In this document: positions 6,449 through 20,912 of the stretch, one piece after another
Layout: the number at the start of each line of letters is the position of its first letter
Numbering within the stretch: the stretch's first letter is position 1
NCBI GenBank assembly: GCA_029004355.1
Contig: JAQURV010000016.1
Span: 1 to 22,007 of the forward strand
Reading direction: 5' to 3'
DNA: 22,007 nt
From: Candidatus Omnitrophota bacterium
Lineage (GTDB): Bacteria; Omnitrophota; Gorgyraeia; 2-01-FULL-45-10
Notes under the pieces: generated by a model
Databases searched by the model: none
What the model was told of the DNA's origin: nothing
What the model saw: only the letters and a program-made list of their open reading frames with translations
Translations under genes and position numbers: made by a program

Positions 6449-7225
6449 CTATTCCTTTTTTGCCGATATCTTCACGCTGGCTATCGCGTCTTCGGTACAT
6501 TTAAATTCCTTGAACATAGCGTCTGTGGGATAACTCGTCTGACCGATCACTTTGACTTCTTTAAACCCGGCAAGCTTTATAAACCTCAGGTATTCATCTT
6601 TCTTGATCGCTCCGGCAAGACAACCCACGTATGCCTCGACCGATCCCTTTATTATGTCCGGCAGATCTTTGACCAGGACCAGATCGGAAACCATGAGCCG
6701 CCCTCCGGGTTTAAGCACCCTGAAAGCCTCTTTAAAAACCCTCTGTTTTTCAGGTGATAGATTAATGACACAGTTTGATATAATGACGTCGATCGAAGCA
6801 TCCTCGACGGGCAGTTTTTCGATCTCACCCAGCCTGAATTCCACATTCGTATACTTACCCTTCCCGGCATTCTTCCGGGCTTTTTCGATCATCTCCGGTG
6901 TCATATCAACGCCTATAACCCGGCCGGTCTTGCCGACTTTTGGAGAAGCAAGGAATGCGTCAAATCCGGCGCCGCTTCCCAGATCAAGCACGACATCGCC
7001 CTCCCTCAAAGATGCAATAGCAACCGGGTTGCCGCATCCAAGGCCCAGGTTGGCGCCTTCGGGAACGATATCAATGTCTGTGTCGCTATAACCGACTGTT
7101 TTACTTATATTTTTCACAGAGCTTGCGCTCCCGCAGCATGAATCCGTAAGGCAGCAAGAAACGTTCTGCGACGCTACTTTGGCGTATTTTTCTTTCACTA
7201 TCTTTTTTATCTTCCTGTCTTTCAT
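6449..7225 (-). CDS. arsM: Arsenite S-adenosylmethionine methyltransferase ArsM
   Basis: SAM motif I 'VLDLGSGAG'. N-terminal cysteine cluster '[11 protein letters not shown]'. Further Cys at 'GLGCGNP', 'SNCVINL' and 'YVGCLAG'. The true start is the internal ATG at 7225 ('MKDRKIKK') with RBS GGGGGTG. The listed 6449-7525 ORF is a 5' read-through. The start overlaps the ccdA stop as ATGA. Confidence 0.85.
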
Positions 7226-7896
7226 ATAAGCACCCCCAGATAAATAGCTATATAATACAGCCCTACTGCCATAAAGATAGCTCCGGTAATTTTTCTTGCG
7301 TATACCTCGAGTCTGGCCACCTTGCCGAACCAATGGTTTAAAGAGGTGATCCCCAATGCAATGCCCAGGGCAAAAATAAATACAGGCAGGCCAGTACCGA
7401 GCCCATATATGAAGGGCAGGCTCAACCCTACCTTGCTCTCTACCGCCAGCGGTATGAGGCTCCCGAAAAAGAGCGCGGCCGATATAGGGCAAAACGACAG
7501 CGCAAAGATAAAGCCTAGGATGCAAGCGCCGAATATGCCGGACCCGGCGAGCCTGGTTTGATGTCTTTCCTGGATTATCAGGCTCGGGATATTGAGTTTA
7601 AAAATATCCAGCAAAAAAAGGCCCGCGATTATCAGGATCGGACCCAATGCTTTGTTCATATACTTCTGCAGAAAGTTCGCCGCCAGGGGCACGCTTAATA
7701 GAGACTTCACGATAAGAAAACCCAATATAGCATACGCCAGCATCCTGCCTATGGTATACGAGATCCCCGATAAAAATACCGTCTTTGGATGGGTTATCTT
7801 CCTGGAGAGGAATGAGATCGCCGCGATATTCGTCGCGAGCGGGCACGGGCTTATTGAGGTAAGGACGCCGAGCCAGAGGGCCGTCAGGATGATCAT
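7222..7896 (-). CDS. ccdA: CcdA/DsbD-family transmembrane thiol-disulfide electron transporter
   Basis: Six predicted TM helices. The first redox Cys is in 'SISPCPL' and the second Cys in 'ALSFCPISAA', the typical CcdA arrangement. The RBS AAGGAG lies upstream of ATG 7896. Confidence 0.8.
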   Translation of the reverse strand: MIILTALWLGVLTSISPCPLATNIAAISFLSRKITHPKTVFLSGISYTIGRMLAYAILGFLIVKSLLSVPLAANFLQKYMNKALGPILIIAGLFLLDIFKLNIPSLIIQERHQTRLAGSGIFGACILGFIFALSFCPISAALFFGSLIPLAVESKVGLSLPFIYGLGTGLPVFIFALGIALGITSLNHWFGKVARLEVYARKITGAIFMAVGLYYIAIYLGVLI

Positions 7897-7899
7897 CTA

Positions 7900-8307
7900 T
7901 TAAAGCTCCTTGAGATACTTTTCTATCTCTGTTCTTATATATTGGTGAAAGGCGTCCTTGTTCCTCAGGTATTCCCATACCTTGGTGAGATTGTCGGATT
8001 TGATCTCCTTACCGCCCTTTACCAGAGAGAGTACGACGGATTTCGTATAAAGCTTGTACTCGTCCGTAAAATGTTCGTTACCTTTCGTTTCGACGTTGAC
8101 TACCTTAAAAACTACCGTGCCCGCATCCAATTCTTTCCGGAAATATTTCTCGACCGCCTCTTTCGTGTTCTGTTCGATCGTTTTGCAATTGACGCATCGG
8201 AAATTACCGTGAAAGTAATAGACTATCACGCTGTTTGCGGGAGCGGCTTCGCATACAAACGAAACGAATATGAGCGCCGCAACTAAAAGGAGCCGTGCGC
8301 GTTTCAT
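7900..8307 (-). CDS. Secreted thioredoxin/glutaredoxin-fold protein with a CVNC motif
   Basis: The true start is ATG 8307 ('MKRARLLLVAALIFVSFVCEA', signal peptide with AXA site) behind RBS GGGGGAG. The mature N-terminus 'VIVYYFHGNFRCVNCKTIEQNTKEAVEKY' matches the beta1-CxxC-alpha1 pattern of Grx/NrdH/ArsC-like folds. About 110 mature residues. Confidence 0.5.
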   Translation of the reverse strand: MKRARLLLVAALIFVSFVCEAAPANSVIVYYFHGNFRCVNCKTIEQNTKEAVEKYFRKELDAGTVVFKVVNVETKGNEHFTDEYKLYTKSVVLSLVKGGKEIKSDNLTKVWEYLRNKDAFHQYIRTEIEKYLKEL

Positions 8308-8543
8308 TTCTCCCCCGAGATCCATTTTTTTATTTCTTCCGCCTTGGGAATGCGGCCGTAGCATTTGATCTTGCCGTTAATGCGCAACCCCGGCGTCTGC
8401 ATAATACCCGCGTCCACTATCTTATTTATCTCTTTGACCTTTTCGACGTCCGCGACGATATTGAGTTCCGAAAGGACGCTCTTTACGCCCTTTTCAACCT
8501 CACCGCACCGATGGCATCCCGGCCCGAATATCTCTATCTTCAT
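8304..8543 (-). CDS. Small thioredoxin-family protein (TIGR00412-like redox-active disulfide protein 2), CHRC active site
   Basis: 'MKIEIFGPGCHRCGE...' followed by '...GIMQTPGLRINGKIKCYGRIPKAEEIKKWI' matches the ~78-aa TM0996/MTH895 family. The true start is ATG 8543 with RBS GGGGGGAGAG. Its stop overlaps the next start as ATGA. Confidence 0.75.
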   Translation of the reverse strand: MKIEIFGPGCHRCGEVEKGVKSVLSELNIVADVEKVKEINKIVDAGIMQTPGLRINGKIKCYGRIPKAEEIKKWISGEK

Positions 8544-9617: not shown

Positions 9618-9920
9618 TTACCGTCTCTTCCTTGTTATTTTACAGCAGCCGCCCTCGATCCTTATAGCCTTGATATTGACCAGTCCGTCGGCGATCTTAT
9701 TGCGGGCGGATGATACGATCCTTGAGAATGTCGGTCTCGATATTTTGAGTCTTTTAGCCGCATCTATCTGTTTTAACCCGTCCAGATCGGCCAGCCTGAC
9801 GGCCTCAAATTCATCCAGGGTCAAACAGATACATTTAACCTTATTTAAGGGTTTGCAGATGGGCTTGAAACATCTCTCGCCCGGCAGGCATTTTATCCAT
9901 CTAGTCTTCTTCGGTCTCAT
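9618..9920 (-). CDS. DUF134 (UPF0251) predicted DNA-binding protein, Cys-rich; candidate operon regulator
   Basis: 'MRPKKTRWIKCLPGERCFKP...LTLDEFEAVRLADLDGLKQIDAAKRLKISRPTFSRIVSSARNKIADGLVNIKAIRIEGG' matches the DUF134 N-terminus plus a sigma-70 region-4-like HTH. It has seven Cys in 100 aa, including a vicinal 'GGCCK'. It is the first gene after the promoter/operator and sits 2 nt upstream of arsP. Confidence 0.65.
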   Translation of the reverse strand: MRPKKTRWIKCLPGERCFKPICKPLNKVKCICLTLDEFEAVRLADLDGLKQIDAAKRLKISRPTFSRIVSSARNKIADGLVNIKAIRIEGGCCKITRKRR

Positions 9921-9982
9921 CTATCCGCCATTATGAACATATGTTCATAATTAATTATACCACATCCCGGTGATTATGCAAA
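9921..9982 (-). promoter_or_regulatory. Sigma70-type promoter (TTGCAT-N16-TATAAT) with a perfect 20-bp palindromic operator over the +1 region
   Basis: The minus strand reads tTTGCATaatcaccgggatgtggTATAATtaaTTATGAACATATGTTCATAAtggcggatagATG. The -35 is at 9981-9976 and the -10 at 9959-9954. The palindrome TTATGAACATATGTTCATAA spans 9950-9931. The DUF134 ATG is at 9920. Confidence 0.55.
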
Positions 9983-11320
9983 TTATTTTTGGATCTTACG
10001 GAAGGCGTGCTTTATCTTTCTTTCCATTATGAAATCGTACCTAAGGTATAGACGCGTCCAGGCCGAGCGTTCCGTCGACATCCTGACGGCTTCGCGCAAA
10101 AACTCGTAGTCGACTCCTTTTATCTTAGGCAGGATGGGGGCGCGCGAGTAATCGCTGTGGGCCTTTATCAGAGAAAGGTCGTTCTTTATGCAGTAATCGT
10201 AAAGGTCGCTCCCCGGATGAGGCGTAAAGAACGCGGGGCTCATCCTGTACGGCTTTATCTTCCGTATCATCCTGACCGTATCCATGGCCTCTTCTCTTGT
10301 CTCCGTCGGGATCCCGAACATGTAGTTGGCCCACATCCTTATGCCGTGTTTCTTGCAGATCTTCGCGGCCCTGTAGTTCATCTCGGCGGTCGAGCCTTTT
10401 CTCAATAGTTTGAGTATGCGGTCGTTGCCGCTTTCGAAACCGATGAGGAACATGCCGAGGCCGGAGCTCTTCATGATCCTTATCATATCTTCGTTCTTGC
10501 AGATTATATCCGCCCTGCTCTGGCAAACGAACGGCGCCTTGAACCCGTTCTTTCTGTACTCTCTGCAGAATTTTTCGATCCAGCCCCTGTCTTCGGTAAG
10601 GCAGTCGTCGTGGAACATCATGCTTTGAAAATGATACCTGTCGCGGAGTTCGTTCAGTTCTTTGATTATATTGTCGACCGACCTGCGCCTTACCTTGTTC
10701 CCGAATATCTTGCGCTCGGCAGGCTGGCAGAAGCTGCAGTTGTAGATGCATCCCCTGCCCGCTATAAGCGTGACGAACGGCCTGTCCAGAAAGCTCTCTA
10801 TGGGCGATTCCTTGTAACGGAATAGTTCCCTGTCCGCGAAAGGAAGGCTGTTGAGGTCGGGGTGCTCGCCCGTTATCACCTTCTCCGCCGGGGCGCCCTT
10901 TTCGATATCCGCGAGCAGTTTTACAAAGCTCGTCTCCCCTTCGCCGATGATAATATGGTCGATGTAGTTATTCGATGTGAGTTCTTCCGGCATTATGCTG
11001 GGGTGCGGCCCGCCTATGACGACTTTTACGTTAGGCAGAGCTGCCTTGGCAGCCTTCGCCGCTTCAACGGCGTAGTCAAAATCGACGCTCATCATCGTTA
11101 TGGCTACGACGTCGGGAGAGAGTTCTTTCAGGTCCTTTTGAAAATCGTCCCACCCGGACAGCTCTCTTAGGTCTATGAGGTTCGTCAGGTGCCCGGCCCT
11201 TTTGGCGCAGGCGCTTAAATAGCAGAGTCCGTGGTGCAGCGAGCTAAAAGTTATAGGCTGCCTGGCCTTGGCAAAACCTGTTTCACCGACAGCCGGAAGC
11301 ACAAAGACTATCTTCAGCAT
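9983..11320 (-). CDS. Cobalamin-binding (class B) radical SAM enzyme
   Basis: The N-terminal Rossmann-like B12-binding region begins 'KIVFVLPAV...'. The radical SAM cluster motif is 'GRGCIYNCSFCQ' (CxxxCxxC), followed by 'GFESGNDRIL'. 445 aa. A TATAAT lies only 8-13 nt upstream of the ATG and there is no obvious SD. Confidence 0.85.
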   Translation of the reverse strand: MLKIVFVLPAVGETGFAKARQPITFSSLHHGLCYLSACAKRAGHLTNLIDLRELSGWDDFQKDLKELSPDVVAITMMSVDFDYAVEAAKAAKAALPNVKVVIGGPHPSIMPEELTSNNYIDHIIIGEGETSFVKLLADIEKGAPAEKVITGEHPDLNSLPFADRELFRYKESPIESFLDRPFVTLIAGRGCIYNCSFCQPAERKIFGNKVRRRSVDNIIKELNELRDRYHFQSMMFHDDCLTEDRGWIEKFCREYRKNGFKAPFVCQSRADIICKNEDMIRIMKSSGLGMFLIGFESGNDRILKLLRKGSTAEMNYRAAKICKKHGIRMWANYMFGIPTETREEAMDTVRMIRKIKPYRMSPAFFTPHPGSDLYDYCIKNDLSLIKAHSDYSRAPILPKIKGVDYEFLREAVRMSTERSAWTRLYLRYDFIMERKIKHAFRKIQK

Positions 11321-11346
11321 ATGCCAGTATTATAGAACAAAAAGGG

Positions 11347-11862
11347 CTATCCATACAAAGTTTTTAATTCTTCTACAGTCGGGTGCTCGGAATAATATTC
11401 ACCCTGCGGCCCGATAAATCCGTTGCCCGACCTTCTCAGCGTGATCGGCGTATAGCTGCCTTTAGAATTGGGGATATTGATAATCACCGTTCCCGGAGCG
11501 GTTGCCGTAATGGGTTGAGCCGCTTCTTGCGCGGCATAAAAGGGTTGGGTCACTACGGGCGGCAGGACAACGACGTAGCCCTGGGAGCAGGGCCTGTAAT
11601 AGACGCCGTCATAATAGTAGTAGGGCACACCCCTGACCACAACACTGCTGTGCCTCGGCGGCAAAGCCTCGACAATGGCGCCGGCGGTGAGGGCGGCCAC
11701 GGCAACGTCGAACCCGAGCCAACCGTGCTTATACCACCTTCCGCCGCAATAATAGTGCTTTTTGGAGTTGACGGGGCCCCACGCAAACGCTTCCTGGGAG
11801 CATAATACCATCAGAGAACAAATCACTATAGCTAACCGATATTTTAAGATATGTTTTAACAT
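11347..11862 (-). CDS. Secreted Tyr-rich hypothetical protein
   Basis: Signal peptide 'MLKHILKYRLAIVICSLMVLCSQEAFA'. Unusual Tyr-rich segments 'KKHYYCGGRWYKHGW' and 'VPYYYYDGVYYRPCSQGYVVVLPP'. The RBS AGGAGG precedes ATG 11862. Confidence 0.5.
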   Translation of the reverse strand: MLKHILKYRLAIVICSLMVLCSQEAFAWGPVNSKKHYYCGGRWYKHGWLGFDVAVAALTAGAIVEALPPRHSSVVVRGVPYYYYDGVYYRPCSQGYVVVLPPVVTQPFYAAQEAAQPITATAPGTVIINIPNSKGSYTPITLRRSGNGFIGPQGEYYSEHPTVEELKTLYG

Positions 11863-11917
11863 TTTTTGCCTCCTTTCAGGATATTAGACAACAAGGCAGG
11901 CAAAAAAGTTCCGCCGG

Positions 11918-12520
11918 CTACATTTCTAATCTCAATTCCTTATTTTTATATTGCAGTTTCACGGAGGTGCTTGTAATAGCGACAACCTTCGCGCTATCCA
12001 CTTCGTCGCCCACGGCTACGGTCTTACCGTTAATAATAGCCTTAGAGCCCATGATGCCTGCCAGCTCGAATTCACTTGCCGGTTTGGGCTGAGCGGCGGC
12101 GGCTGTTTTGGCCTTAGGCGATTTATCGAGTACTGCTTTCATGATGCCGGCGAAGGTCGGCGCGTTCCTGTATCCTACGACAGTATCCACGGTCTTGCCG
12201 GCCGCGCTGAAGAATATGACGGTGGGATATCCCCGCAGTTTATATTTTGAGAACGCGTTCTTATCGACCCCGCAATCCACCTTAACACAGATGAATCTTT
12301 CGGCCAGTTTATCCACGGTCTCATCCACATAAACATCTTCGTCGAGTTTTTTACACCAGCCGCACCATTCCGTGTAGAAATCGGCCATGACGGGTTTGCC
12401 TTCGGCCTTTGCCTTTTTGAACGCCCCGTCAAGGTCTGTTTCCCAGGAGATCGCCCAGGCCTCCGGACCCGAAGTCAGCACAAACGCGAATAATAGAAAC
12501 GCTGTTATGGTCTTTTTCAT
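11918..12520 (-). CDS. Secreted thioredoxin (CGWC active site)
   Basis: Signal peptide 'MKKTITAFLLFAFVLTSGPEAWA'. Canonical Trx motif 'FYTEWCGWCKKLD', with 'YPTVIFF' downstream. A C-terminal extension of about 70 aa follows. The start abuts the BASS gene stop as TAGATG, and the RBS AGGAAGG lies inside the upstream gene. Confidence 0.8.
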   Translation of the reverse strand: MKKTITAFLLFAFVLTSGPEAWAISWETDLDGAFKKAKAEGKPVMADFYTEWCGWCKKLDEDVYVDETVDKLAERFICVKVDCGVDKNAFSKYKLRGYPTVIFFSAAGKTVDTVVGYRNAPTFAGIMKAVLDKSPKAKTAAAAQPKPASEFELAGIMGSKAIINGKTVAVGDEVDSAKVVAITSTSVKLQYKNKELRLEM

Positions 12521-13471
12521 CTATGCGCCTTCCTGTTTTTCCGCCGGGTCAGGCATCCGGTTCCAGATGCTCGCCAATACGGCCGCGCTTATTATACACC
12601 ATGTGGCGAAGAGCGCATTGGGTATCGCGGCTTCCGCCGAGGCATATTTTATCGCAAGGACCGCGCCGAGGCCTGCGTTCTGCATGCCCACGCCTATGGC
12701 AAGCGTACGGCGCTGTTTCCGGTTGAATTTAAATAATATGCCCGCGCCGTAACCTAATACCAGCCCGGAGATATTGAGCAGGACCACCGAGATAAAGACA
12801 ATGACCGTGATGCCTCCAAGCGCTCCTCTGTTGAGCGCGACGACCAGGCCGCAGATGAAGGCTATGAATATCGTGGAGAACGCCGGGAATACGGGACGCA
12901 TCTTCTCGACGGGCCGTTTGAAATAATGCCGCGCGGTAAGGCCAAGGAAGAGCGGCACGATCACCATGAGCATGATGCTCTGCATCATGGGCCAGAACTG
13001 GATCGGCACGTATTCGTGGGCAAAGAAATACATGAGGGCCGGGGTAACGACCGGCGATATGAGCGTAGTACCCGTAGTGAGCGCGACCGACAGCGCGACA
13101 TCCGCCTCGGCTATGTATGACATAACGCCTGCCGCCATCGCGTCGGGGACGGCCCCCGCGAGGATGAGCCCGAAGGCAAGCGCCGGCGGGAGATCCAGGA
13201 GCCGCACTATGATAACCGCCGCGAGGGGCATGATGGTGAACTGCGCCAGTATTCCCAGGATAACGAGCCTCGGTTTTTTAAAGATGGGCTCGAAGTCTTT
13301 CACCGAAAGGAGCGCGCCTATGCCGAACATCGTTGCCGCGAAGAACCAGTCTATAAAAGGCTTGAGCGGGATAAAGGCTTGTGGGAAAAAGTAAGCCGCA
13401 GCCACGGCGATGACCACCCAGAATACGAGATAGTCCGTGAAATATTCGGCTATCCTGTTAATAAGATGCAT
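12521..13471 (-). CDS. Bile acid:sodium symporter (BASS/SBF) family transporter, in the BART superfamily like ACR3
   Basis: About 9-10 TM helices. Family-typical 'AIGVGMQNAGLGAVLA' and 'LILAGAVPDAMAAGVMS' segments. 316 aa. Confidence 0.75.
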   Translation of the reverse strand: MHLINRIAEYFTDYLVFWVVIAVAAAYFFPQAFIPLKPFIDWFFAATMFGIGALLSVKDFEPIFKKPRLVILGILAQFTIMPLAAVIIVRLLDLPPALAFGLILAGAVPDAMAAGVMSYIAEADVALSVALTTGTTLISPVVTPALMYFFAHEYVPIQFWPMMQSIMLMVIVPLFLGLTARHYFKRPVEKMRPVFPAFSTIFIAFICGLVVALNRGALGGITVIVFISVVLLNISGLVLGYGAGILFKFNRKQRRTLAIGVGMQNAGLGAVLAIKYASAEAAIPNALFATWCIISAAVLASIWNRMPDPAEKQEGA

Positions 13472-13484
13472 AGGGGCCCGGTTC

Positions 13485-13982
13485 TTAAGTTATGAACTGC
13501 GCCTTTACTTTAGGATGGATGAAATACATGATAACCGCCAGGTTAAATAATAAGGCTATGGTTATCGATATCACCATTATTACGTTGATCGACTTCTTTA
13601 CGGCCTCTTTCAGCCTGGCCATATCTACCTGGGCCGGCTTATAACCTTTCTTTTCGGCGGCAGCTTTGGCCGCGTCATTGAACTCCTGTTCGAATTGAGC
13701 CGAATAGACTTCACTGCCTTTCTTTATTGCGCTTGGCGCCGTTATCAAGGTCTCTGCCGATACCAATATCGCTATTACGATCACTCCTACGCGGGCCCAA
13801 TTCTTCAATTTTAATAAATAGACGGCCATTATGAAAGAGGCCGGCAGTATAATAAAATAGAAGTAATTCGAAAGCGGCGGGTTCACTTTTTGCGCTTCCG
13901 CGAGGCTCATGGCGCTCAGGACCGTCCCAATGATTATTACCCAGCTGAATATCGTCACTCCCGCAGGTCTCTTCTTATCCAT
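13485..13982 (-). CDS. Small polytopic membrane protein (hypothetical)
   Basis: Four predicted hydrophobic helices. The ATG at 13982 has RBS AAAGGGGG 5-12 nt upstream. The listed ORF begins one codon earlier at a GTG. No recognisable motif. Confidence 0.45.
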   Translation of the reverse strand: MDKKRPAGVTIFSWVIIIGTVLSAMSLAEAQKVNPPLSNYFYFIILPASFIMAVYLLKLKNWARVGVIVIAILVSAETLITAPSAIKKGSEVYSAQFEQEFNDAAKAAAEKKGYKPAQVDMARLKEAVKKSINVIMVISITIALLFNLAVIMYFIHPKVKAQFIT

Positions 13983-14016
13983 CACTGCCCCCTTTCCGCA
14001 TAATCCTTCGAGCTCT

Positions 14017-14541
14017 TTATTCCAGATCGTTCAGGATCTTTTTAATGACCTGAAATTCTTCTTTCGGGATAACGCCCGACCTGACGTAACGGACGGTCCC
14101 CGCCTTATCGATGATCAGGAAATTAGCCTCATCGACTGCCATGCCGTAGCTCTTTTCCATCGCGCCGTCCCAATCTCCGTATATGATAATGCCTTCTTTT
14201 CTGGAATTCTCGCGCAAACTCCGCTGCCATATGACCGGCATAAAAACCGAGCAGCGGATAACGGCTATCCTCATCACCTCTTTTTGTACCGCCGGAGATG
14301 ATCCCGCATAAAATGCATTCAGCTCCTCTTTAAGGGCCCTGTTCTTTTCTTTTGTATCTTTCGTTTCATAGAATATCGTGGCTACTTTATCTTTAAGCAT
14401 ATCGGATGTAAGGGTCTCGTTGCTGCCGGATACCACCCGAAAATACGGCGCTTTCTCCCCGTTGGTTATGCCGATTGCTGGGGCAGCCGATAAAACGATA
14501 AAGCATACGATTATTATAAATACGTTAAATAGTTTTGCCAA
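14017..14541 (-). CDS. Periplasmic thioredoxin-fold (redoxin/YtfJ-like) protein lacking a CxxC motif
   Basis: Signal-peptide-like 'AKLFNVFIIIVCFIVLSAAPAIG'. Redoxin-fold pattern ('KVATIFYETKDTK...', 'FLIIDKAGTVRYV'). The ORF contains no ATG start. The TTG at 14541 has an AAGGG RBS, whereas the TTG at 14586 has none. The boundary is uncertain by 45 nt. Confidence 0.45.
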   Translation of the reverse strand: MAKLFNVFIIIVCFIVLSAAPAIGITNGEKAPYFRVVSGSNETLTSDMLKDKVATIFYETKDTKEKNRALKEELNAFYAGSSPAVQKEVMRIAVIRCSVFMPVIWQRSLRENSRKEGIIIYGDWDGAMEKSYGMAVDEANFLIIDKAGTVRYVRSGVIPKEEFQVIKKILNDLE

Positions 14542-15091
14542 GGTTATAGGCCCTTTCGAGTAATTTAGCGTGTTTCTTAGCGTCAAAATCTGCGGCGCCT
14601 GTCGCCGTAAGCGTTTTTATCCTGACGTGCATATAATTGAAAAATGCCTTCATGGCCCGGACAGAACCCGTAACGATACCTAATAGATGGGAAAACGGAA
14701 AGGGCGCGTGACAGCTTGTTATCAGGATGACCTTACCCGGTTTTTTGGAAGGATAGACAGGGCCGAAGCGGAACTCTTTGAACATAGAATAGCCTCTGTC
14801 AAAAAATCTTTTGGCGCAGGAGGTCACATTGCTAAAATAGGTAGGCGAGCTAAAAACTACTATGTCGGCGTCCCGGATCTTGTCGGCAACGGCATTAAAA
14901 TCGTCTTCTATGATGCATCGCCCCGTTCGCTGGCAGGCGGAACAACCCCTGCATGGCTTTATTGTCAGATCCATAAAATAGATCTTCTCGGTAGAGGCGC
15001 CTCTGTCACGCAACCCATCGAGGGCAGATTCCGTTAATCTGTCGGTTACCTGCCCTTTTCTCGGTCCTGTTACGATCCCGATCGCTTTCAT
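14525..15091 (-). CDS. Iron-sulfur flavoprotein (Isf) / NAD(P)H-dependent FMN reductase family
   Basis: Flavodoxin-like 'MKAIGIVTGPRKGQVTD'. Compact cluster motif 'CRGCSACQRTGRC' (C-x2-C-x2-C-x5-C) typical of Isf. 'VFSSPTYFSNV' FMN-binding segment. ATG 15091 is preferred over GTG 15127, which would read through an AT-rich promoter-like tract. Confidence 0.7.
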   Translation of the reverse strand: MKAIGIVTGPRKGQVTDRLTESALDGLRDRGASTEKIYFMDLTIKPCRGCSACQRTGRCIIEDDFNAVADKIRDADIVVFSSPTYFSNVTSCAKRFFDRGYSMFKEFRFGPVYPSKKPGKVILITSCHAPFPFSHLLGIVTGSVRAMKAFFNYMHVRIKTLTATGAADFDAKKHAKLLERAYNLGKTI

Positions 15092-15260
15092 CTTTAAAAT
15101 AATTATAGCATATAAAAGAAAACCCACCTACCTTTTCCACTTCTCGTATATGCGGTAGATGGGCCAAACCCTACGAGGCTTATGGGCTACTGTCTAAATC
15201 CTCTCTCCCTTAGCCTCATATATAGTATAGCACATTTTTCGGTAAAATACAATGGTTCGG
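15092..15260 (-). promoter_or_regulatory. Intergenic region with two extended -10 promoters (TTGTAT-N16-TGcTATACT distal; TGcTATAAT 10 nt from the ATG)
   Basis: The minus strand reads ...cattgTTGTATtttaccgaaaaatgTGcTATACTatat... with the -10 at 15229-15224. It also reads ...tataTGcTATAATtattttaaagATG with the -10 at 15107-15102. No SD precedes the ATG, so the proximal promoter would give a near-leaderless mRNA. Confidence 0.4.
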
Positions 15261-16967
15261 CTATTTATTGTCTAACGCTGCCAGGGTTTCATGGGCCTCC
15301 GGCCCCGGGTAACCGCATGCTATAGAATTTTTCAAAGCTTCTTTAGCTTCCTCCGGGCGCCCCGCCTCTTTTAAGGCTACCCCTAAATTATAGTATGCGC
15401 TTGGATCTTCAGGGCAAACTCTGACAGCGGCTTTAAACCACCTGATAGCTGATGGATGATCACCTGTTTTGCCTTCGATAAAACCAAGGTAGATATACGG
15501 GGTTACATACGACGGGTCGATCTTAATGGCGGAAAGGAGTTCTTTTTTGGCTAATTCCGTATTATTTGTTCTCAAAAGCGCGAGGCCCAGGTCGCCGGCA
15601 GATTGAGCTTTGTCGCGGGCATTGAAGGAAGGATCATCTTTGATCATATTGAATATTTCCCGGGCAATAGGCAGCGCCTTTTCAAATTCTCCGTTATTTA
15701 ACATGACTGTCAAAAGATTGATGCGGGGCCTTACGGCATAAGCTGGCGTATCTTGCACCGTCGCGGCAAACAGGGTATAGTCGTTTCGCCATACATTTAC
15801 TCTATGTTCAGATCTAACTCCGTAGCCTGTTAAAATAAATATAGCGACAGACGCCGCTGCTATTTTTGAAGTATGCTTTCTGAAAAATAATAGACCGGCA
15901 CCCATGGCAACCGCAAAACCGGCAATAGGCAAATATAGAAACCTTTCTGCCATATATTGTTTCATCGGGACAAGGTTAGATACGGGCAGAAGAAATATGA
16001 CGATCCAGCACAACCCGAACGATCCGACGGGCCACCGCTTGCGGCTTTTAAAAACAAGGGCGGCAAATAGCGCCAGGATGCCCGCGTACAGCCAAAGATG
16101 CCAGTCAATAAATGATTTTAAAGGCAGGATCCCCGAATAATCGGCAAGCAACCTCTGGGGATATGCTAATATTAACAGATATTTAACGCCTACTTTAAAC
16201 ATTGTCATCATTGCCGGTAAAAATCCGCCGTCCAAATAAACGGATTGGGCAGTATGCCCTATAAAACAATGCCTCCACGCCAGATAAGTAAGTCCGGCGA
16301 GAAAGAGATATAGATAGAGCCGCCATAAACGTTTAAAAGGATTGCCGCCGCAAATCAGTATATCATAAAGAAGAAACGCCGCAGGAAGGGCGATGGCTTG
16401 TTCTTTAGAGAGGCACGCCAAAAAATATAATGCCGCCAATATGATCATCTGCCTTATATTCAATGCGCGATGCCATCTTAGCCATAATAAAAAGGCTGTG
16501 AAGACGAAAAGTCCGGCCAATAAGTCATCGCGGCATTTTACCCAGGCGACAACCTCGCTTTGGGCCGGGTGGATCAGATAGACAAGCCCGGCAAAGAGAG
16601 AACTAAATTTTTCTTTCAGTAGTTCCTTCGCGATCAGAAATACCAGAAGCGCATTTAAGAGATGGAGTATCAGGTTGTGCAGGTGACACCAGCGCGGATC
16701 GAGATGGGAGATTTTAAAGTCGACAAGATAGGATATATTACGGATGGGCCTGAACACGCCAAAAGCGTGAGCGTACCCTTTACCGGCGCTTGTTGAAATA
16801 TCCGTAAAATATCCGGGTATGGATGTCCAGCTGTGAATGGCGTTATTTGAAACTATAAAGTATTCGTCGTCCCAAACGAATGAATGCCCAACTGTTTTAC
16901 CCCATACCAACGCGGATAATATCATGAAAATGACTGCTGGGTATACGACAAAGCGCGATTCTTTCAT
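15261..16967 (-). CDS. GT-C/PMT-like integral membrane protein with C-terminal TPR repeats (DUF1736/TMTC-like)
   Basis: About 11 TM helices in the first ~380 aa, with a 'WDDEYFIVSNNAIHSW' loop like PMT/ArnT-type glycosyltransferases. The C-terminus has 4-5 TPR motifs ('AYYNLGVALKEAGRPEEAKEAL'). Confidence 0.7.
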   Translation of the reverse strand: MKESRFVVYPAVIFMILSALVWGKTVGHSFVWDDEYFIVSNNAIHSWTSIPGYFTDISTSAGKGYAHAFGVFRPIRNISYLVDFKISHLDPRWCHLHNLILHLLNALLVFLIAKELLKEKFSSLFAGLVYLIHPAQSEVVAWVKCRDDLLAGLFVFTAFLLWLRWHRALNIRQMIILAALYFLACLSKEQAIALPAAFLLYDILICGGNPFKRLWRLYLYLFLAGLTYLAWRHCFIGHTAQSVYLDGGFLPAMMTMFKVGVKYLLILAYPQRLLADYSGILPLKSFIDWHLWLYAGILALFAALVFKSRKRWPVGSFGLCWIVIFLLPVSNLVPMKQYMAERFLYLPIAGFAVAMGAGLLFFRKHTSKIAAASVAIFILTGYGVRSEHRVNVWRNDYTLFAATVQDTPAYAVRPRINLLTVMLNNGEFEKALPIAREIFNMIKDDPSFNARDKAQSAGDLGLALLRTNNTELAKKELLSAIKIDPSYVTPYIYLGFIEGKTGDHPSAIRWFKAAVRVCPEDPSAYYNLGVALKEAGRPEEAKEALKNSIACGYPGPEAHETLAALDNK

Positions 16968-16974
16968 GCTGGTC

Positions 16975-17784
16975 TCAGAACGGGCTCTTGAATACCCCGC
17001 TCACGGCGTCTTTAGCTTTTGAGGCTGCTTCCGCGGCCTTCTGGGTCGTTTCGATGGCTGTCTTTGTCGCCTTTTGCGCCGTCTCGGAGGCCTGCGCGGT
17101 CATCTTCTGGGCGCTGGCAAGTGTCCCGGAAACCGAACCGCTCAAACCTTTGAGATCGAAATTGGCAAGGCCCGCTATGGAAGTGTTCATAAGGGCTTTT
17201 ACGACTATCAGGCTGACCAAAGTGTAGGGATTCGTTATGTTTGTATATTGCTCGTCTATATTGACATTGAATTCCTTTACGCTCGGTTCGCCGCCCCTGG
17301 AATAGTCCTTATAAACCACTTTGCCTATCTTTAAACGCAGCTTATCTATCTGTATCTCCGGGACTTTTCCGCCGGCCTTCTCCTGCGTCTTGCCGCCCGA
17401 TTTCTGGGCCTGCACGACCTTAAGCGAGTCGAGGTTCAGCTTGCCTTTTTCGTTTTTGACGACGGTGAATTCCCGCATATTTATGCGCGTTTCCGTCAAG
17501 TGGACCTTTCCTTTGAAGATGGCAGGCAGGTCATAATCTACATATATCTCCGGCATGTTGAGCATGTTCTTATCTTTGAAACCTGCGGGATTTAGTATGC
17601 GCAGGTTCCTTATGTCTACGAGGGTATTCAGCATCCCTATCCTGAATCCTCCGATCTTTAATTTCAGGCCGGTCACTATCTGCGTCCCGGATTCTACCGC
17701 TACCTTGATAACCAGGTCTTTGGCTATGCCCAAAATAAAGATAACTACCAATATCCCTACCGCTATAACCATCCACTTCTTCAT
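16975..17784 (-). CDS. Membrane-anchored hypothetical protein with a low-complexity C-terminal tail
   Basis: The true start is ATG 17784 ('MKKWMVIAVGILVVIFILGIA', N-terminal TM anchor) behind RBS GGGAGGTGG. The GTG at 17814 would read through the RBS. The C-terminal tail is rich in Ala/Thr/Gln/Lys. Confidence 0.5.
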   Translation of the reverse strand: MKKWMVIAVGILVVIFILGIAKDLVIKVAVESGTQIVTGLKLKIGGFRIGMLNTLVDIRNLRILNPAGFKDKNMLNMPEIYVDYDLPAIFKGKVHLTETRINMREFTVVKNEKGKLNLDSLKVVQAQKSGGKTQEKAGGKVPEIQIDKLRLKIGKVVYKDYSRGGEPSVKEFNVNIDEQYTNITNPYTLVSLIVVKALMNTSIAGLANFDLKGLSGSVSGTLASAQKMTAQASETAQKATKTAIETTQKAAEAASKAKDAVSGVFKSPF

Positions 17785-18684: not shown

Positions 18685-19710
18685 TCATGTCTCCTTATCG
18701 TGTGCCAGCGCGATAGCCTTTTCGCTCAACATCTTCCATTTATCATATTGTAAATAAAGGCCTTTTATCTTCGAATTGCCTTTACTCAGGATCGTCCTGC
18801 CGTCCGTTTTTCTTATTTTTATTCTACTCTTAAATCCAAGAAAGTCAAGAAGATGGCATATTCTCAAAATGAGCGTTTTTGTGTTCTTTGCGTTATCTGC
18901 GGTGAAGACTATCGCATCTATGCCTCCCAGGACAGAGATAAACGCCCCTGTATATCTCGCGATATGATATTTCAATATTTCCGGCGCCTGATCGGGAAGG
19001 CAGTTTAGGCCGCTTCCCCTGGACAACAGATCGTTTATCCGCTCAAACGACATCCCTTCCGCGTTAAGCTGAAAAATGATCGTAGGGTCGATATCGCCGC
19101 ATGCGGTTTGCGACGGTATGCCCTCCACCGAGGTAAACCCTACCGTTGTCTCTACGGGGGCCCCGTTCTTTATGGCCGCTATATTGGCGGCGTTCCCCAG
19201 ATATACGGATATTACTTTTTGAACGCCCCTGCCAAATACCCGCCTGGCTTCCTCCCATGCCCGCTCGTGACATAGCCCATAACCTCCGTACCGCCTGACG
19301 CCTTTTTTACTCAGCTCATATGGTATAGCATAGGTGCTGGCCTTGTCGGGAAGACATATGAAAAAAGACGTATCGCAAAATAGCACGTGACGGTGGTCCG
19401 CGAATTCCATCGACAGGTATTTCGCCATCTTGTAGATAATACTATTATGCTCCGGCAGGAATCTAACGCACTTCTCCATCCTGGCCAGCGATCGGCCGGT
19501 CAATATGCTGACGGGTTTGTCTATCTCCTCTCCGCCGTTAGGCAATAGATAGCCGAAGAGGATCCTTTCGCCGTTATTTTCTTTCGCTATTTTCTGCCGG
19601 ACCTTATCAAAGCATGATCCGCCGAATATAATTCTATCGCGCGATGAACGCCCGTTCTTTACGGTACGCCATCGTATGAACGGCGGATCCGGTTCGAATA
19701 TTATTATCAT
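18685..19710 (-). CDS. Acetate-kinase-family paralog with degenerate catalytic residues (probable pseudo-kinase)
   Basis: Aligns to AckA via 'VKNGRSS' (cf. NCGSSS), 'RRYGGYGLCHE' (cf. KYGFHGxSH), 'VYLGNAANIAAIKNG', 'TACGDIDP' (Arg to Ala) and 'VLGGIDAIVFTA'. The 'FCDTSFF' segment replaces 'FDTAFH', losing the His. It is about 60 aa shorter than AckA. Its start overlaps the upstream ackA stop as ATGA. Confidence 0.7.
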   Translation of the reverse strand: MIIIFEPDPPFIRWRTVKNGRSSRDRIIFGGSCFDKVRQKIAKENNGERILFGYLLPNGGEEIDKPVSILTGRSLARMEKCVRFLPEHNSIIYKMAKYLSMEFADHRHVLFCDTSFFICLPDKASTYAIPYELSKKGVRRYGGYGLCHERAWEEARRVFGRGVQKVISVYLGNAANIAAIKNGAPVETTVGFTSVEGIPSQTACGDIDPTIIFQLNAEGMSFERINDLLSRGSGLNCLPDQAPEILKYHIARYTGAFISVLGGIDAIVFTADNAKNTKTLILRICHLLDFLGFKSRIKIRKTDGRTILSKGNSKIKGLYLQYDKWKMLSEKAIALAHDKET

Positions 19711-20912
19711 CTTTTTGCCTTTAACAGCTTCAGGCCCTCTAAACAGATGGCCAGTTCTTCCTCGGCAGGAATAGAGACTATCTTGACGCTGGCATTTTTC
19801 GCATTCAATACAGAGATGACATTGCCGACGGCCTTACGGTTCAGCCTTTTATCCAGAACTATACCGCACCATTCCATCTCCCGACACACCTTCTCTCTTA
19901 TAAGAGGGTTCCGGAGGCCTATATCGTCCGTGAATACCAGTGCGTCGATGCCCCCGAGTATCGTTATATAGCTGCCGATGTATTTTTTCAAACGGTGTAT
20001 ATACATCTCCAGGGCCAGCCCCGCCTGCTCCTCCTCTGTGGATATACGATGGATGATGTCGCGTATATCGCTTGAGAACCCGGATATCCCCAACAGTCCA
20101 CTGTCTTTGTTGAGCATATCCATAAGCTGGTCTGGCCTGTAGCCGTATGTCGCCATCAGATATATGGCGAGCATCGGGTCTATGTCCCCGCAGCGCGTGC
20201 TCATCATAAGCCCGGGCAGAGGCGAATAACCCATGGAATTGTCGAGTGATATGCCGCCGTTTATCGCGGCGACACTTGATCCTCCGGTCCCCAGGTGACA
20301 TGCCACCATCTTTACTTTTTCCGGCGGCCGTTTTAGTATCCCGGGAACGGTCTTGGCCACATACGAGTAAGAGAGTCCGTGAAAACCATATTTTCTGAAT
20401 CCGAATCTTTTTCTTATTTTTTCAGGCAGGGCATACGTATACGCGTAATACGGTATTGTTGAATGGAACGCGGTATCGAACGTCACATACTGTTTTATGC
20501 GGGGAAATCGTTTAGAGCACTCCCGCATCACTGCCAGCGTGACGGGGTTATGGATCGGCGCAAGCGGCAGGCATAGATACAGCTTATTTAAGACATTCCT
20601 GTCGATAAAGACCGATCTGCTGAAGTAGGCGCCGCCGTTCACGAACCGGTGGCCTATATAGTCTATGCCGATATCGCTCTCACTTAGGTGCCGCAATATC
20701 AGGATAGCCGCCTGGTCATGGCTCTTTATAGGCACTACATCTTTCCGTACGCTTTGCTGAAAACGATGCTCTATAAAGGACGGTTCTTTGCCTTTTACGC
20801 CTACCCTGTGGGCCTTTCCGGATATTATTTCCTTCTGATCTTTCGACGCGGCTATACCGAAGACGTTATATGTCAGCGATGAACTTCCGCAATTGAAGAC
20901 TAAGATATTCAA
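19707..20912 (-). CDS. ackA: Acetate (or propionate/butyrate) kinase, canonical
   Basis: 'ILVFNCGSSSL', 'GHRFVNGG', 'FDTAFHST', 'KYGFHGLSY', 'CHLGTGGSSVAAINGG', 'STRCGDIDP' and 'IPAEEELAI' are all conserved. The start is TTG, with GGAG 8-11 nt upstream. Confidence 0.85.
   Translation of the reverse strand: MNILVFNCGSSSLTYNVFGIAASKDQKEIISGKAHRVGVKGKEPSFIEHRFQQSVRKDVVPIKSHDQAAILILRHLSESDIGIDYIGHRFVNGGAYFSRSVFIDRNVLNKLYLCLPLAPIHNPVTLAVMRECSKRFPRIKQYVTFDTAFHSTIPYYAYTYALPEKIRKRFGFRKYGFHGLSYSYVAKTVPGILKRPPEKVKMVACHLGTGGSSVAAINGGISLDNSMGYSPLPGLMMSTRCGDIDPMLAIYLMATYGYRPDQLMDMLNKDSGLLGISGFSSDIRDIIHRISTEEEQAGLALEMYIHRLKKYIGSYITILGGIDALVFTDDIGLRNPLIREKVCREMEWCGIVLDKRLNRKAVGNVISVLNAKNASVKIVSIPAEEELAICLEGLKLLKAKR

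What the first reader, a model, noticed from the sequence alone, without database searches (positions are those of the whole stretch)
11347..15091. Extended co-directional periplasmic redox/transport module upstream of the arsenic operon
Going upstream from the rSAM there is a Tyr-rich secreted protein, a secreted CGWC thioredoxin whose start abuts the BASS transporter stop (TAGATG), a small membrane protein, a CxxC-less redoxin-fold periplasmic protein and an Isf-type iron-sulfur flavoprotein. Between the arsenic operon and this module there are five thioredoxin-fold proteins and two BART-superfamily transporters (ACR3 and BASS) within 10 kb. The BASS transporter could be a second metalloid or organo-metalloid carrier, since ACR3 evolved from this superfamily.
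Basis: inference. Interest (0 to 1): 0.6.

Follow-up and report, generated by a model that had tools for sequence, protein, structure and literature searches.

The report
Unconserved gene string beside arsenic operon
The six genes are real and correctly described, but they are a lineage-specific run of ordinary envelope, redox and transport genes next to a separately controlled arsenic operon, not a conserved arsenic module.

Summary
The window comes from an Omnitrophota MAG. All six genes at 11347-15091 exist as described: an Isf-type flavoprotein, a Cys-less peroxiredoxin-fold secreted protein, a 4-TM protein, a BASS transporter, a secreted WCGWC thioredoxin (the TAGATG junction is real) and a Tyr-rich DUF6515 protein. 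The genes are tightly spaced and two junctions look translationally coupled, so they are probably co-transcribed.

The "module" reading fails the comparative tests.
- The closest relative has DUF748-BASS-[ars operon] and lacks all five other genes and the rSAM gene.
- Thioredoxin and DUF6515 orthologues sit in unrelated neighbourhoods.
- The commonest neighbours at 69 distinct BASS loci are housekeeping genes.
- The ars operon has its own promoter and an 18-bp palindromic operator, conserved in four lineages. That operator occurs only once in the window.

The BASS protein is a canonical BASS family member, far closer to ASBT_NM/PanS (204 bits) than to ACR3 (25% over 99 aa). It is conserved across the phylum.

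One weak signal remains: ars genes lie within 10 kb of this BASS in 4 of 69 loci, which amounts to two or three independent events. The BASS clade also has a rebuilt ion/substrate site: E260 is lost, D110 is gained, and two Cys are invariant or nearly so. A metalloid role is therefore unlikely but not excluded.

Overall this is ordinary and of low interest.

The parts
15092..15260 (-). Intergenic region upstream of the Isf gene and the largest gap in the gene run (169 nt). It holds two extended -10-like elements, TGcTATACT (15232-15224) and TGcTATAAT (15110-15102, 10 nt before the ATG). It also holds an imperfect inverted repeat at 15108-15120 / 15141-15153. This is the likely start of the transcription unit.
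   Evidence: Sequence read directly; inverted repeat I4; gap sizes. The consensus scan did not call either element, so promoter activity is inferred.
14525..15091 (-). Isf-type flavoprotein, 188 aa, cytoplasmic: FMN_red/flavodoxin-like fold with a compact CX2CX2CX5C motif (Cys47/50/53/59).
   Evidence: PF03358 61.1 bits and PF02525 39.1 bits. Best solved relative is 7d38 'Cd1', E 2e-13, with the Cys motif aligned. Binding of a 4Fe-4S cluster was not tested.
14017..14541 (-). Secreted, Cys-less peroxiredoxin/redoxin-fold protein (YtfJ-like), 174 aa from a TTG start. It overlaps the Isf stop by 17 nt, which suggests translational coupling.
   Evidence: The family has 306 representatives. Its profile matches Bcp/peroxiredoxin structures 2ywn and 3hjp over the full length, E about 1e-6. 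AhpC-TSA hits 30/46 members and YtfJ 26/46. The catalytic Cys position is Asn67 in 43/46; one semi-conserved Cys97 occurs in 31/46. The single-sequence AF2 model was unusable, pLDDT 43.
13485..13982 (-). Small membrane protein, 165 aa, with four hydrophobic segments and no known family.
   Evidence: No Pfam hit. Hydropathy segments at about 6-30, 39-60, 62-86 and 127-158. No homologue was found in any of the 103 related loci.
12521..13471 (-). BASS-family transporter, 316 aa, belonging to an Omnitrophota-wide clade with a modified ion/substrate site.
   Evidence: PF01758 126.6 bits; PanS NF047939 229 bits (cut-off 400); TIGR00841 190.7 bits (cut-off 326). ASBT_NM 3zuy 204 bits over residues 1-305. 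There are 1272 homologues at E<=1e-20, and the best 120 are 63-84% identical, mostly from Omnitrophota. Residue signature.
11918..12520 (-). Secreted thioredoxin (WCGWC) with a conserved T2SSB/GspC-HR-like C-terminal domain, 200 aa. Its start codon abuts the BASS stop (TAGATG).
   Evidence: Thioredoxin_7 60.9 bits and best NCBIfam matches to the C-terminal thioredoxin part of DsbD/TsoB. The two-domain architecture is conserved in 21 aligned homologues; T2SSB hits 7/21, best E 8.8e-6.
11347..11862 (-). DUF6515 protein, 171 aa: signal peptide, 9.3% Tyr, an internal hydrophobic helix (49-67) and a well-conserved C-terminal beta domain.
   Evidence: PF20125 46.2 bits. 199 homologues, with those named by a source coming from Omnitrophota; alignment. 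AF2 model pLDDT 74 with no solved-structure match (best E 0.33).
9983..11320 (-). B12-binding radical SAM protein, 445 aa, the last gene of the string before the ars promoter. It has no Shine-Dalgarno sequence. TTGTAT-18-TATAAT (-10 at 11334-11329) sits 8 nt before the ATG, so it may have its own leaderless start.
   Evidence: PF04055 and PF02310. It lies below every NCBIfam equivalog cut-off; ArsL scores 46 bits against a cut-off of 450. Sequence read directly. It is absent from the ars-adjacent relatives L003/L007, L024 and L066.
9921..9982 (-). Autonomous ars-operon promoter and operator, marking the boundary between the string and the arsenic operon. The -35 TTTGCA is at 9982-9977, the -10 TATAAT at 9959-9954, and the perfect 22-bp palindrome ATTATGAACATATGTTCATAAT at 9930-9951.
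   Evidence: Promoter scan, 10/12 matches with TG. Palindrome. The same promoter-palindrome arrangement lies upstream of DUF134 in L003/L007, L024 and L066/L067.

Best explanation
The region holds six correctly identified genes, seven with the rSAM gene. In this one Omnitrophota lineage they form a compact, probably polycistronic string. It lies between a phylum-wide core BASS transporter neighbourhood and an independently regulated DUF134-ArsP-ArsE-ArsF-ArsG-ArsM-ACR3 operon. It is a lineage-specific juxtaposition of ordinary envelope, redox and transport genes, not a conserved module and not part of the ars regulon.

Likely working:
- Transcription starts in the 169-nt gap upstream of the Isf gene (inferred).
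- Isf to redoxin-like (17-nt overlap) and BASS to thioredoxin (TAGATG) are translationally coupled (shown by sequence; function inferred).
- Isf acts as a cytoplasmic FMN/Fe-S electron carrier of the kind linked to oxidative-stress protection in anaerobes (from family knowledge).
- The thioredoxin, the Cys-less peroxiredoxin-fold protein and DUF6515 are exported by Sec-type signal peptides into the periplasm (inferred).
- The BASS protein moves a small organic anion by the elevator mechanism of its family, with altered ion coupling (inferred from residues).
- The ars operon is switched separately by its own operator, probably bound by the Cys-rich DUF134 protein. At most it receives read-through from upstream.
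For: Anatomy.

Autonomy of the ars operon: the promoter and 18-bp palindrome are conserved in four lineages, with terminator hairpins just upstream in L024 and L066. There is a single copy in the window at up to 3 mismatches.

Lack of conservation:
- L003/L007 (BASS 84%, DUF748 78%, DUF134 86% identical) has DUF748-BASS-DUF134-ArsP only.
- L024 has PMT/TPR-BASS-DUF6798-DUF6515-LTXXQ-DUF134-ars.
- L104, L004/5, L006 and L021, from the same >=76% BASS clade, have no ars genes.
- Thioredoxin orthologues lie beside DUF900 and near pyrimidine genes.
- DUF6515 orthologues lie beside ECF-sigma/LTXXQ/MacAB genes, beside an RND pump, or beside nothing notable.
- No homologue of the redoxin-like or 4-TM protein appears in any fetched locus, and Isf homologues appear only in L006 (50%) and L041 (31%).
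- The most frequent BASS neighbours across 69 distinct loci are an uncharacterised 237-aa protein and apparent housekeeping proteins (deaminase, CstA, Dus, PGI; named from reading example sequences, not from a family search).

BASS identity.

A survey of about 700 transporters in ars operons lists no non-ACR3 BASS (PMC4435449).
Against: - ars genes lie within 10 kb of this BASS in 4 of 69 distinct loci. The expectation is roughly 0.35-0.6 if an ars operon were placed at random in a 2-Mb genome (the genome size is my assumption).
- DUF6515 sits just upstream of the ars operon in two lineages, the window and L024.
- No terminator is predicted between the rSAM gene and DUF134, so read-through into ars is possible.
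- Tight spacing and two coupled junctions would also fit a real functional operon.
- There are no expression data.
Confidence: 0.62

Rival explanations
1. The string is a real, self-contained envelope/oxidative-stress operon unrelated to arsenic. Isf would detoxify O2/H2O2 in the cytoplasm. The periplasmic thioredoxin and the peroxiredoxin-fold protein would repair or buffer envelope thiols. DUF6515 would be an envelope-stress protein. The BASS gene would simply be embedded among them.
For: - Tight spacing and two coupled junctions.
- Three redox-related folds in a row.
- DUF6515 elsewhere lies next to ECF sigma/anti-sigma, LTXXQ (Spy/CpxP-like) and efflux pumps.
- L006 shows a loose Isf (50%)...BASS...Trx-TPR arrangement.
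Against: - The gene set is not found together in any other locus examined.
- The peroxiredoxin-fold protein lacks the catalytic Cys.
- No thiol donor such as CcdA/DsbD lies within the string; the only one nearby is ArsG, in the separately regulated ars operon.
- No stress-regulator site was identified.
Confidence: 0.2
2. The BASS protein is a second metalloid or organo-metalloid carrier, and the neighbouring redox proteins serve arsenic handling as an upstream extension of the ars operon.
For: - BASS-ars proximity recurs in the window, L003/L007 and L024 (one clade) and independently in L066/67/68.
- The BASS clade has lost Na+ ligands (S114A, N115G, E260G/N) and gained an invariant Asp110.
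- It carries invariant Cys207 and near-invariant Cys292 at positions equivalent to ASBT_NM Ile207 and the substrate-contacting His294 (residue roles from PMC10645422).
- ArsG (CcdA-like) could in principle reduce an extra periplasmic thioredoxin.
Against: - The ars operon has its own conserved promoter and operator, and none lies upstream of BASS or Isf.
- In L066 an Rrf2 regulator, an MCP and two other genes separate ars from BASS.
- 65 of 69 distinct BASS loci have no ars genes within the flank available (up to 10 kb), and their commonest neighbours are housekeeping genes.
- The protein is 63-84% conserved across the phylum, like a core gene.
- It is a canonical BASS member, not an ACR3-clade protein, and lacks the ACR3 R-C-I-A-M motif.
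- Thioredoxin orthologues are never next to BASS or ars.
- No BASS was found among about 700 ars-operon transporters.
Confidence: 0.08
3. The segment between BASS and the ars operon, and that between DUF748 and BASS, are variable insertion hotspots. The extra genes are recently acquired accessory cargo with no shared function.
For: - Three related genomes carry three different gene sets at the same two junctions: window, L003/L007 and L024.
- GC3 is uneven along the string: BASS 0.72, rSAM 0.70, Isf 0.53, PMT/TPR 0.47.
Against: - No integrase or transposase gene was recognised among the window proteins scanned. No tRNA search or flanking-repeat search was run.
- All the gene families are typical Omnitrophota families at 45-70% identity, so transfer from outside the phylum is not indicated.
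- Loss in the relatives explains the pattern equally well.
Confidence: 0.1

Closest known systems
ASBT_NM (Neisseria meningitidis) and PanS (Salmonella): BASS family, TC 2.A.28, pantoate/ketopantoate carriers
   Same: End-to-end alignment with ASBT_NM (204 bits, residues 1-305) and best NCBIfam hit to PanS (229 bits). Q77, S128, T132, M263, Q264, N265, G267 and I203 are kept. The same 10-TM core/panel elevator architecture is implied.
   Different: It falls below the PanS (400) and TIGR00841 (326) cut-offs. The Na+ ligands are changed: S114A, N115G, E260G/N. An invariant Asp110 is new. The pantoate contacts are changed: T112M, H294C, N295I, I47T. Cys207 is invariant (residue roles from PMC10645422). 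Substrate and coupling ion are unknown.
ACR3 arsenite efflux carriers (TIGR00832), including the copy in this window at 5386-6444
   Same: Same superfamily; both hit Pfam SBF PF01758.
   Different: Only 25% identity over 99 aa. There is no TIGR00832 hit for the BASS protein. The ACR3 TM4 motif with its essential Cys (RCIAMV in the window's ACR3) is VPDAMAAG here.
Iron-sulfur flavoprotein Isf of Methanosarcina thermophila
   Same: FMN_red fold and an N-terminal compact Cys motif, CX2CX2CX5C at residues 47-59. The motif definition is from my own knowledge of the family.
   Different: No solved Isf matched by sequence at E<=1e-3; the best PDB relative is 7d38 'Cd1'. Cluster binding and O2/H2O2 reduction are untested.
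Periplasmic Thioredoxin_7 / DsbD C-terminal-type thioredoxins
   Same: Signal peptide, WCGWC active site, and best matches to the C-terminal thioredoxin part of DsbD/TsoB.
   Different: It is a stand-alone protein fused to a T2SSB/GspC-HR-like C-terminal domain. No DsbD/CcdA partner is encoded next to its orthologues.
Bcp/AhpC-TSA peroxiredoxins and the YtfJ_HI0045 family
   Same: Full-length profile match to Bcp structures. AhpC-TSA and YtfJ hits occur in most family members.
   Different: The peroxidatic Cys is replaced by a conserved Asn and there is no CxxC. The window protein itself is below the YtfJ cut-off, 19 bits against 24. It is therefore not a functional peroxiredoxin.
ArsEFG/ArsP/ArsM/ACR3 arsenical resistance operons
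   Same: These genes lie immediately downstream and on the same strand.
   Different: The string has no ars family member and no ars operator, and its synteny with ars is not conserved, apart from partial BASS and DUF6515 proximity.

Membership tests
BASS / Pfam SBF (PF01758) | Score above the Pfam gathering threshold | tested here: met
   126.6 bits against 24.3
PanS equivalog (NF047939) | Score above the NCBIfam equivalog cut-off of 400 bits | tested here: not met
   229.1 bits
TIGR00841 bass subfamily | Score above the cut-off of 326.3 bits | tested here: not met
   190.7 bits
Na+-coupled ASBT_NM-type BASS | Na1/Na2 ligands Ser114, Asn115 and Glu260 (with Gln77, Ser128, Thr132, Met263, Gln264) | tested here: not met
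   Ala114, Gly115 and Gly260 here. Position 260 is Gly or Asn in all 79 family sequences that cover it. Q77, S128, T132, M263 and Q264 are kept.
Pantoate-binding BASS (ASBT_NM/PanS/BASS1) | Side-chain contacts Asn265, Thr112, His294 and Asn295 (PMC10645422) | tested here: inconclusive
   Asn265 and Gly267 are kept, but Thr112 is Met, His294 is Cys292 and Asn295 is Ile293. Much of the binding in ASBT_NM is through main-chain atoms.
ACR3 (TIGR00832) | Model hit and the TM4 Cys motif | tested here: not met
   No TIGR00832 hit for the BASS protein. Identity to the window's ACR3 is 25% over 99 aa, and the motif region reads VPDAMAAG.
ars operon / ars regulon | Shared promoter or operator with the ars genes | tested here: not met
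   The conserved palindrome occurs only at 9932-9949, upstream of DUF134, and there is no second copy at up to 3 mismatches.
ars operon / ars regulon | Conserved synteny with ars genes across lineages | tested here: not met
   Thioredoxin: 0 of 3 distinct orthologue contexts. DUF6515: 1 of 5 other contexts. BASS: 4 of 69 distinct loci. Isf, redoxin-like and 4-TM proteins: none found.
ars operon / ars regulon | Induction by arsenicals | not testable with these tools
   No expression data are available.
Thioredoxin (Thioredoxin_7, PF13899) | Domain hit and a CxxC active site | tested here: met
   60.9 bits against 27. WCGWC is present, with the W, C, W, C positions invariant in 21 homologues.
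Isf iron-sulfur flavoprotein | FMN_red fold plus the compact CX2CX2CX4-7C motif | tested here: met
   PF03358 61.1 bits; Cys47/50/53/59.
Isf iron-sulfur flavoprotein | Binds a 4Fe-4S cluster and FMN; reduces O2/H2O2 | not testable with these tools
   Requires biochemistry.
Peroxiredoxin (AhpC-TSA/Bcp) | Peroxidatic Cys in the FYPxxxTxxC region | tested here: not met
   The aligned position is Asn67 in 43/46 members and there is no Cys in the motif.
YtfJ_HI0045 (PF09695 / TIGR01626) | Score above the curated cut-off | tested here: not met
   18.7-19 bits against 24 (Pfam), and 18.1 bits against 151 (TIGR). However, 26/46 family members match at E<=0.01.
DUF6515 (PF20125) | Score above the gathering threshold | tested here: met
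   46.2 bits against 24.9.

The most novel reading that the evidence does not exclude
The Omnitrophota BASS clade has lost the canonical Na+-site carboxylate (E260G/N, S114A, N115G). It has gained an invariant Asp110 and carries Cys207 and Cys292 at substrate-lining positions. It could be a thiol-lined carrier for a soft metalloid, an organoarsenical or a thiol conjugate. Alternatively it could be a redox-gated transporter whose panel-core Cys pair is reset by the translationally coupled periplasmic thioredoxin. Either would give the recurrent proximity to DUF134-controlled ars operons a functional meaning.
Probability: 0.08. Interest if true: 0.6.

Novelty: new member of a known kind. Interest (0 to 1): 0.2.

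Why it matters
As it stands, this matters little. The region is a set of recognisable gene families in a poorly studied phylum, placed next to an arsenic operon but not part of it. The useful outcome is negative: proximity and shared strand should not be read as an extended arsenic module here.

Two by-products could matter more than the finding itself.
- The BASS clade is conserved across the phylum and has a rebuilt ion/substrate site. This bears on how coupling evolves in elevator transporters.
- A Cys-rich DUF134 protein with a conserved operator appears to head ars operons in place of a recognisable ArsR in these four lineages.

Tried and rejected
- Single-sequence AF2 model of the redoxin-like protein: pLDDT 43, unusable. 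I replaced it with profile searches.
- Foldseek of the DUF6515 model against the PDB: nothing below E 0.3. The afdb50 library was unavailable.
- Rfam over the window and a relaxed search over 9800-15400: no credible RNA element.
- Hairpin sequestering the DUF6515 ribosome-binding site (11862-11907): -16.7 kcal/mol, z -1.55, with 11/200 shuffles folding as well. Not significant.
- Consensus promoter/terminator scan: counts are at shuffle level and no intergenic terminator lies inside the string.
- Literature searches: nothing found on DUF6515 function or on DUF134 with arsenic; the Omnitrophota-arsenic and ArsEFG hit lists were only skimmed by title and abstract.
- Idea that the rSAM protein is an arsinothricin or arsenosugar enzyme: ArsL scores 46 bits against a cut-off of 450, and the gene is absent from the other ars-adjacent loci.
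- Idea that the thioredoxin is a conserved BASS partner: rejected. None of the other 68 distinct BASS loci has it adjacent; L006 has only a Trx-TPR protein 2 kb away.

Full report
SOURCE AND LAYOUT

The BASS protein is encoded identically on a contig of GCA_028712245.1, a Candidatus Omnitrophota/Omnitrophica MAG. From 21739 down to 4042, 21 consecutive genes lie on the minus strand. In order of transcription, the relevant genes are:
- FolE2-like.
- A terminator-like hairpin at 17838-17820.
- DUF748 (16975-17784).
- PMT_2/TPR membrane protein (15261-16967).
- A 169-nt gap.
- Isf-type flavoprotein (14525-15091).
- Redoxin-like protein (14017-14541).
- 4-TM protein (13485-13982).
- BASS (12521-13471).
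- Thioredoxin (11918-12520).
- DUF6515 (11347-11862).
- B12-radical SAM (9983-11320).
- A 62-nt gap holding a promoter and palindrome.
- DUF134 (9618-9920), ArsP, ArsE, ArsF, ArsG, ArsM and ACR3 (5386-6444).
- A flotillin-like gene.

CHECK OF THE OBSERVATION

- The Isf-like protein has the FMN_red fold and Cys47-x2-Cys50-x2-Cys53-x5-Cys59.
- The redoxin-like protein on its own gives only a sub-threshold YtfJ hit. An exhaustive search found a family of 306 representatives. A 46-member profile aligns over its full length with Bcp/peroxiredoxin structures (E about 1e-6). AhpC-TSA hits 30/46 members and YtfJ 26/46. The peroxidatic Cys position is a conserved Asn and there is no CxxC. "CxxC-less redoxin fold" is therefore right.
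- Its most plausible start is a TTG preceded by GAAAGGG. This gives a signal-peptide-like N-terminus and a 17-nt overlap with the Isf stop.
- The thioredoxin has a signal peptide and WCGWC, and its ATG follows the BASS TAG directly.
- DUF6515 is 9.3% Tyr.
- ACR3 and BASS both hit PF01758.

Three caveats apply. I could count four thioredoxin-fold proteins, not five. Co-directionality is uninformative in a 21-gene same-strand run. The consensus scans for promoters and terminators are at shuffle level.

IS IT ONE UNIT, AND DOES IT BELONG TO THE ARS OPERON?

Inside the string the gaps are -17, 34, 13, 0, 55 and 26 nt, with no intergenic terminator. Co-transcription from the 169-nt gap upstream of the Isf gene is therefore plausible. 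That gap contains TGcTATACT (15232-15224) and TGcTATAAT (15110-15102), read directly; promoter function is inferred. The rSAM gene lacks a Shine-Dalgarno sequence and has TTGTAT-18-TATAAT ending 8 nt before its ATG. It may have its own leaderless start (inference).

The ars operon is clearly autonomous. TTTGCA-17-TATAAT (9982-9954) is followed by a perfect 22-bp palindrome (9930-9951) just before DUF134. The same promoter-plus-TATGAACATATGTTCATA arrangement lies upstream of DUF134 in three other Omnitrophota ars loci: L003/L007, L024 and L066/L067. In L024 and L066 a terminator-like hairpin precedes it. In the window the palindrome occurs once, even with three mismatches allowed. The string therefore carries no copy of the ars operator.

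COMPARATIVE GENOMICS

I collected 69 distinct loci encoding this BASS clade from genome and metagenome collections, about 702 kb of flank in total. I searched all of them with every protein of the window.
- The closest relative (BASS 84%, DUF748 78%, DUF134 86% identical) has DUF748-BASS-80 nt-DUF134-ArsP. It lacks PMT/TPR, Isf, the redoxin-like protein, the 4-TM protein, the thioredoxin, DUF6515 and the rSAM gene.
- L024 (BASS 81%) has PMT/TPR-BASS-DUF6798-DUF6515-LTXXQ-DUF134-ArsP-E-F-G-M.
- Five other members of the same >=76% clade (L104, L004/5, L006, L021, L027) have no ars genes nearby.
- A more distant lineage (L066/67/68, BASS 67%) has a complete ars operon 4.4 kb upstream of BASS. 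A DUF4136 lipoprotein, an Rrf2 regulator, an MCP and a rhodanese lie in between.
- Clustering of all BASS neighbours shows that the commonest are a 237-aa protein of unknown function (9 loci) and, judging from the example sequences rather than a family search, a CMP/dCMP-type deaminase, CstA, Dus and glucose-6-phosphate isomerase. This is a housekeeping-type context.
- Thioredoxin orthologues (60-66% identical, same two-domain architecture) lie next to DUF900 and near pyrimidine genes.
- DUF6515 orthologues lie next to ECF sigma/anti-sigma/LTXXQ/MacAB-OEP genes, next to an RND pump, or in unremarkable places.
- No homologue of the redoxin-like or 4-TM protein appeared in any fetched locus.

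STATISTICS OF THE BASS-ARS PROXIMITY

Suppose one roughly 6-kb ars operon were placed at random in a 2-Mb genome (the genome size is my assumption). The surveyed flanks would then be expected to contain about 0.35-0.6 ars operons. Four distinct loci do. On a neighbour-joining tree of the BASS proteins, the window and L003 are sisters and L024 is close to them. The four loci therefore represent two or three independent events. The Poisson probability is about 0.003 if all four count and about 0.05-0.1 if only two do. This is suggestive but not convincing.

WHAT THE BASS PROTEIN IS

It aligns end to end with ASBT_NM (204 bits) and ASBT_Yf (about 189 bits). Its best NCBIfam score is against PanS (229 bits, below the equivalog cut-off of 400). 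It shares only 25% over 99 aa with the window's ACR3. More than 1,200 homologues were found, and the best 120 are 63-84% identical, mostly from Omnitrophota. This behaviour fits a core gene rather than accessory resistance cargo.

Residue roles below come from the ASBT_NM-pantoate paper (PMC10645422) and, for E260, Q77, S128, T132, M263 and Q264, from my own knowledge of the 2011 ASBT_NM structure.
- Kept in the clade: Q77, S128, T132, M263, Q264, N265, G267 and I203.
- Changed Na+ ligands: S114A, N115G, E260G/N.
- Gained: an invariant Asp110.
- Changed substrate contacts: T112M, H294C (Cys292), N295I, I47T.
- Also gained: an invariant Cys207 at the position of Ile207.

These calls are from 47 and 77. 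The protein is therefore a canonical BASS by descent but not a plain PanS/ASBT_NM-type Na+:pantoate symporter. Its substrate and coupling ion are unknown. A survey of about 700 transporters encoded in ars operons lists no non-ACR3 BASS (PMC4435449).

OTHER COMPONENTS

The thioredoxin carries a conserved C-terminal domain of about 50 residues. That domain matches T2SSB in 7/21 homologues and T2SSC in 2/21. The protein may therefore be docked to an envelope machine. DUF6515 gave an AF2 model with pLDDT 74 and two beta-rich parts plus a hydrophobic helix, but no solved-structure match. The Isf-like protein's closest solved relative is 7d38 'Cd1'.

VERDICT

The interpretation as an arsenic-linked redox/transport module is not supported by operator distribution, synteny or BASS phylogeny.

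The best explanation (about 0.6) is a lineage-specific, probably co-transcribed run of ordinary envelope, redox and transport genes between a core BASS gene and an autonomous ars operon.

Novelty: new members of known kinds. Interest is low (0.2). The only features worth a follow-up are the atypical BASS binding site and, outside this finding, the DUF134-headed ars operon.

Noticed in passing
window 9618-9982 (-); also L003 9996, L007 10996, L024 14245, L066 293, L067 274: The ars operon is headed by a Cys-rich DUF134 protein rather than a recognisable ArsR. The protein has 7 Cys, including a C-terminal GGCC. An 18-bp palindrome, TATGAACATATGTTCATA, lies just downstream of the -10 and is conserved in four Omnitrophota lineages. 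The one paper that contains both 'DUF134' and 'arsenic' is about iron deficiency in Bacteroidetes and mentions each term once. DUF134 may be an arsenic-responsive repressor.
   Followed up: partly
window 12521-13471 (-), residues 110-115, 207, 260, 292-293: The Omnitrophota BASS clade has lost the ASBT_NM Na+ ligands (S114A, N115G, E260G/N) and gained an invariant Asp110. It has invariant Cys207 and near-invariant Cys292 at the positions of ASBT_NM Ile207 and the substrate-contacting His294.
   Followed up: partly
window 11918-12100 (-), C-terminal ~50 residues of the thioredoxin: The secreted WCGWC thioredoxin is fused to a conserved small domain. That domain matches T2SSB in 7/21 homologues and T2SSC in 2/21. 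The architecture is conserved across Omnitrophota.
   Followed up: partly
window 11321-11346 and 15092-15110 (-): The rSAM and Isf genes both lack a Shine-Dalgarno sequence. Each has a TATAAT 8-10 nt before the ATG (11334-11329; 15107-15102, with a TG extension). This hints at leaderless or near-leaderless transcripts.
   Followed up: no
window 7222-8543 (-): ArsE is a cytoplasmic Thioredoxin_3 protein. ArsG is a DsbD_2/CcdA-like membrane protein. ArsF has a signal-peptide-like N-terminus and CxxC. Together they have the anatomy of a complete DsbD-like thiol relay across the membrane.
   Followed up: no
L006 8435-9936; L104 9502-10939: In two related genomes, small FMN-binding split-barrel proteins (Flavin_Reduct, PNPOx_N) directly precede the BASS gene, 12-14 nt upstream.
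   Followed up: no
L066 9450-10939: In the distant ars-proximal locus, a rhodanese-domain protein lies immediately upstream of BASS, after an Rrf2 regulator and an MCP.
   Followed up: no
L100 8001-14254; L103 2942-8552; L024 12985-14144: DUF6515 genes tend to lie next to envelope-stress or efflux genes: ECF sigma/anti-sigma, LTXXQ/Spy-like proteins, MacAB-OEP and RND pumps. This suggests an envelope-stress role for this uncharacterised family.
   Followed up: partly
window 18685-20912 (-): Two acetate/propionate-kinase-like genes lie in tandem and overlap by 4 nt. The second (341 aa) is shorter and scores below the family cut-off (149 bits against 293).
   Followed up: no
window 11862-11907: An inverted repeat could pair the DUF6515 ribosome-binding site with an upstream U-rich stretch. 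Its folding energy is not better than shuffles (z -1.55).
   Followed up: yes
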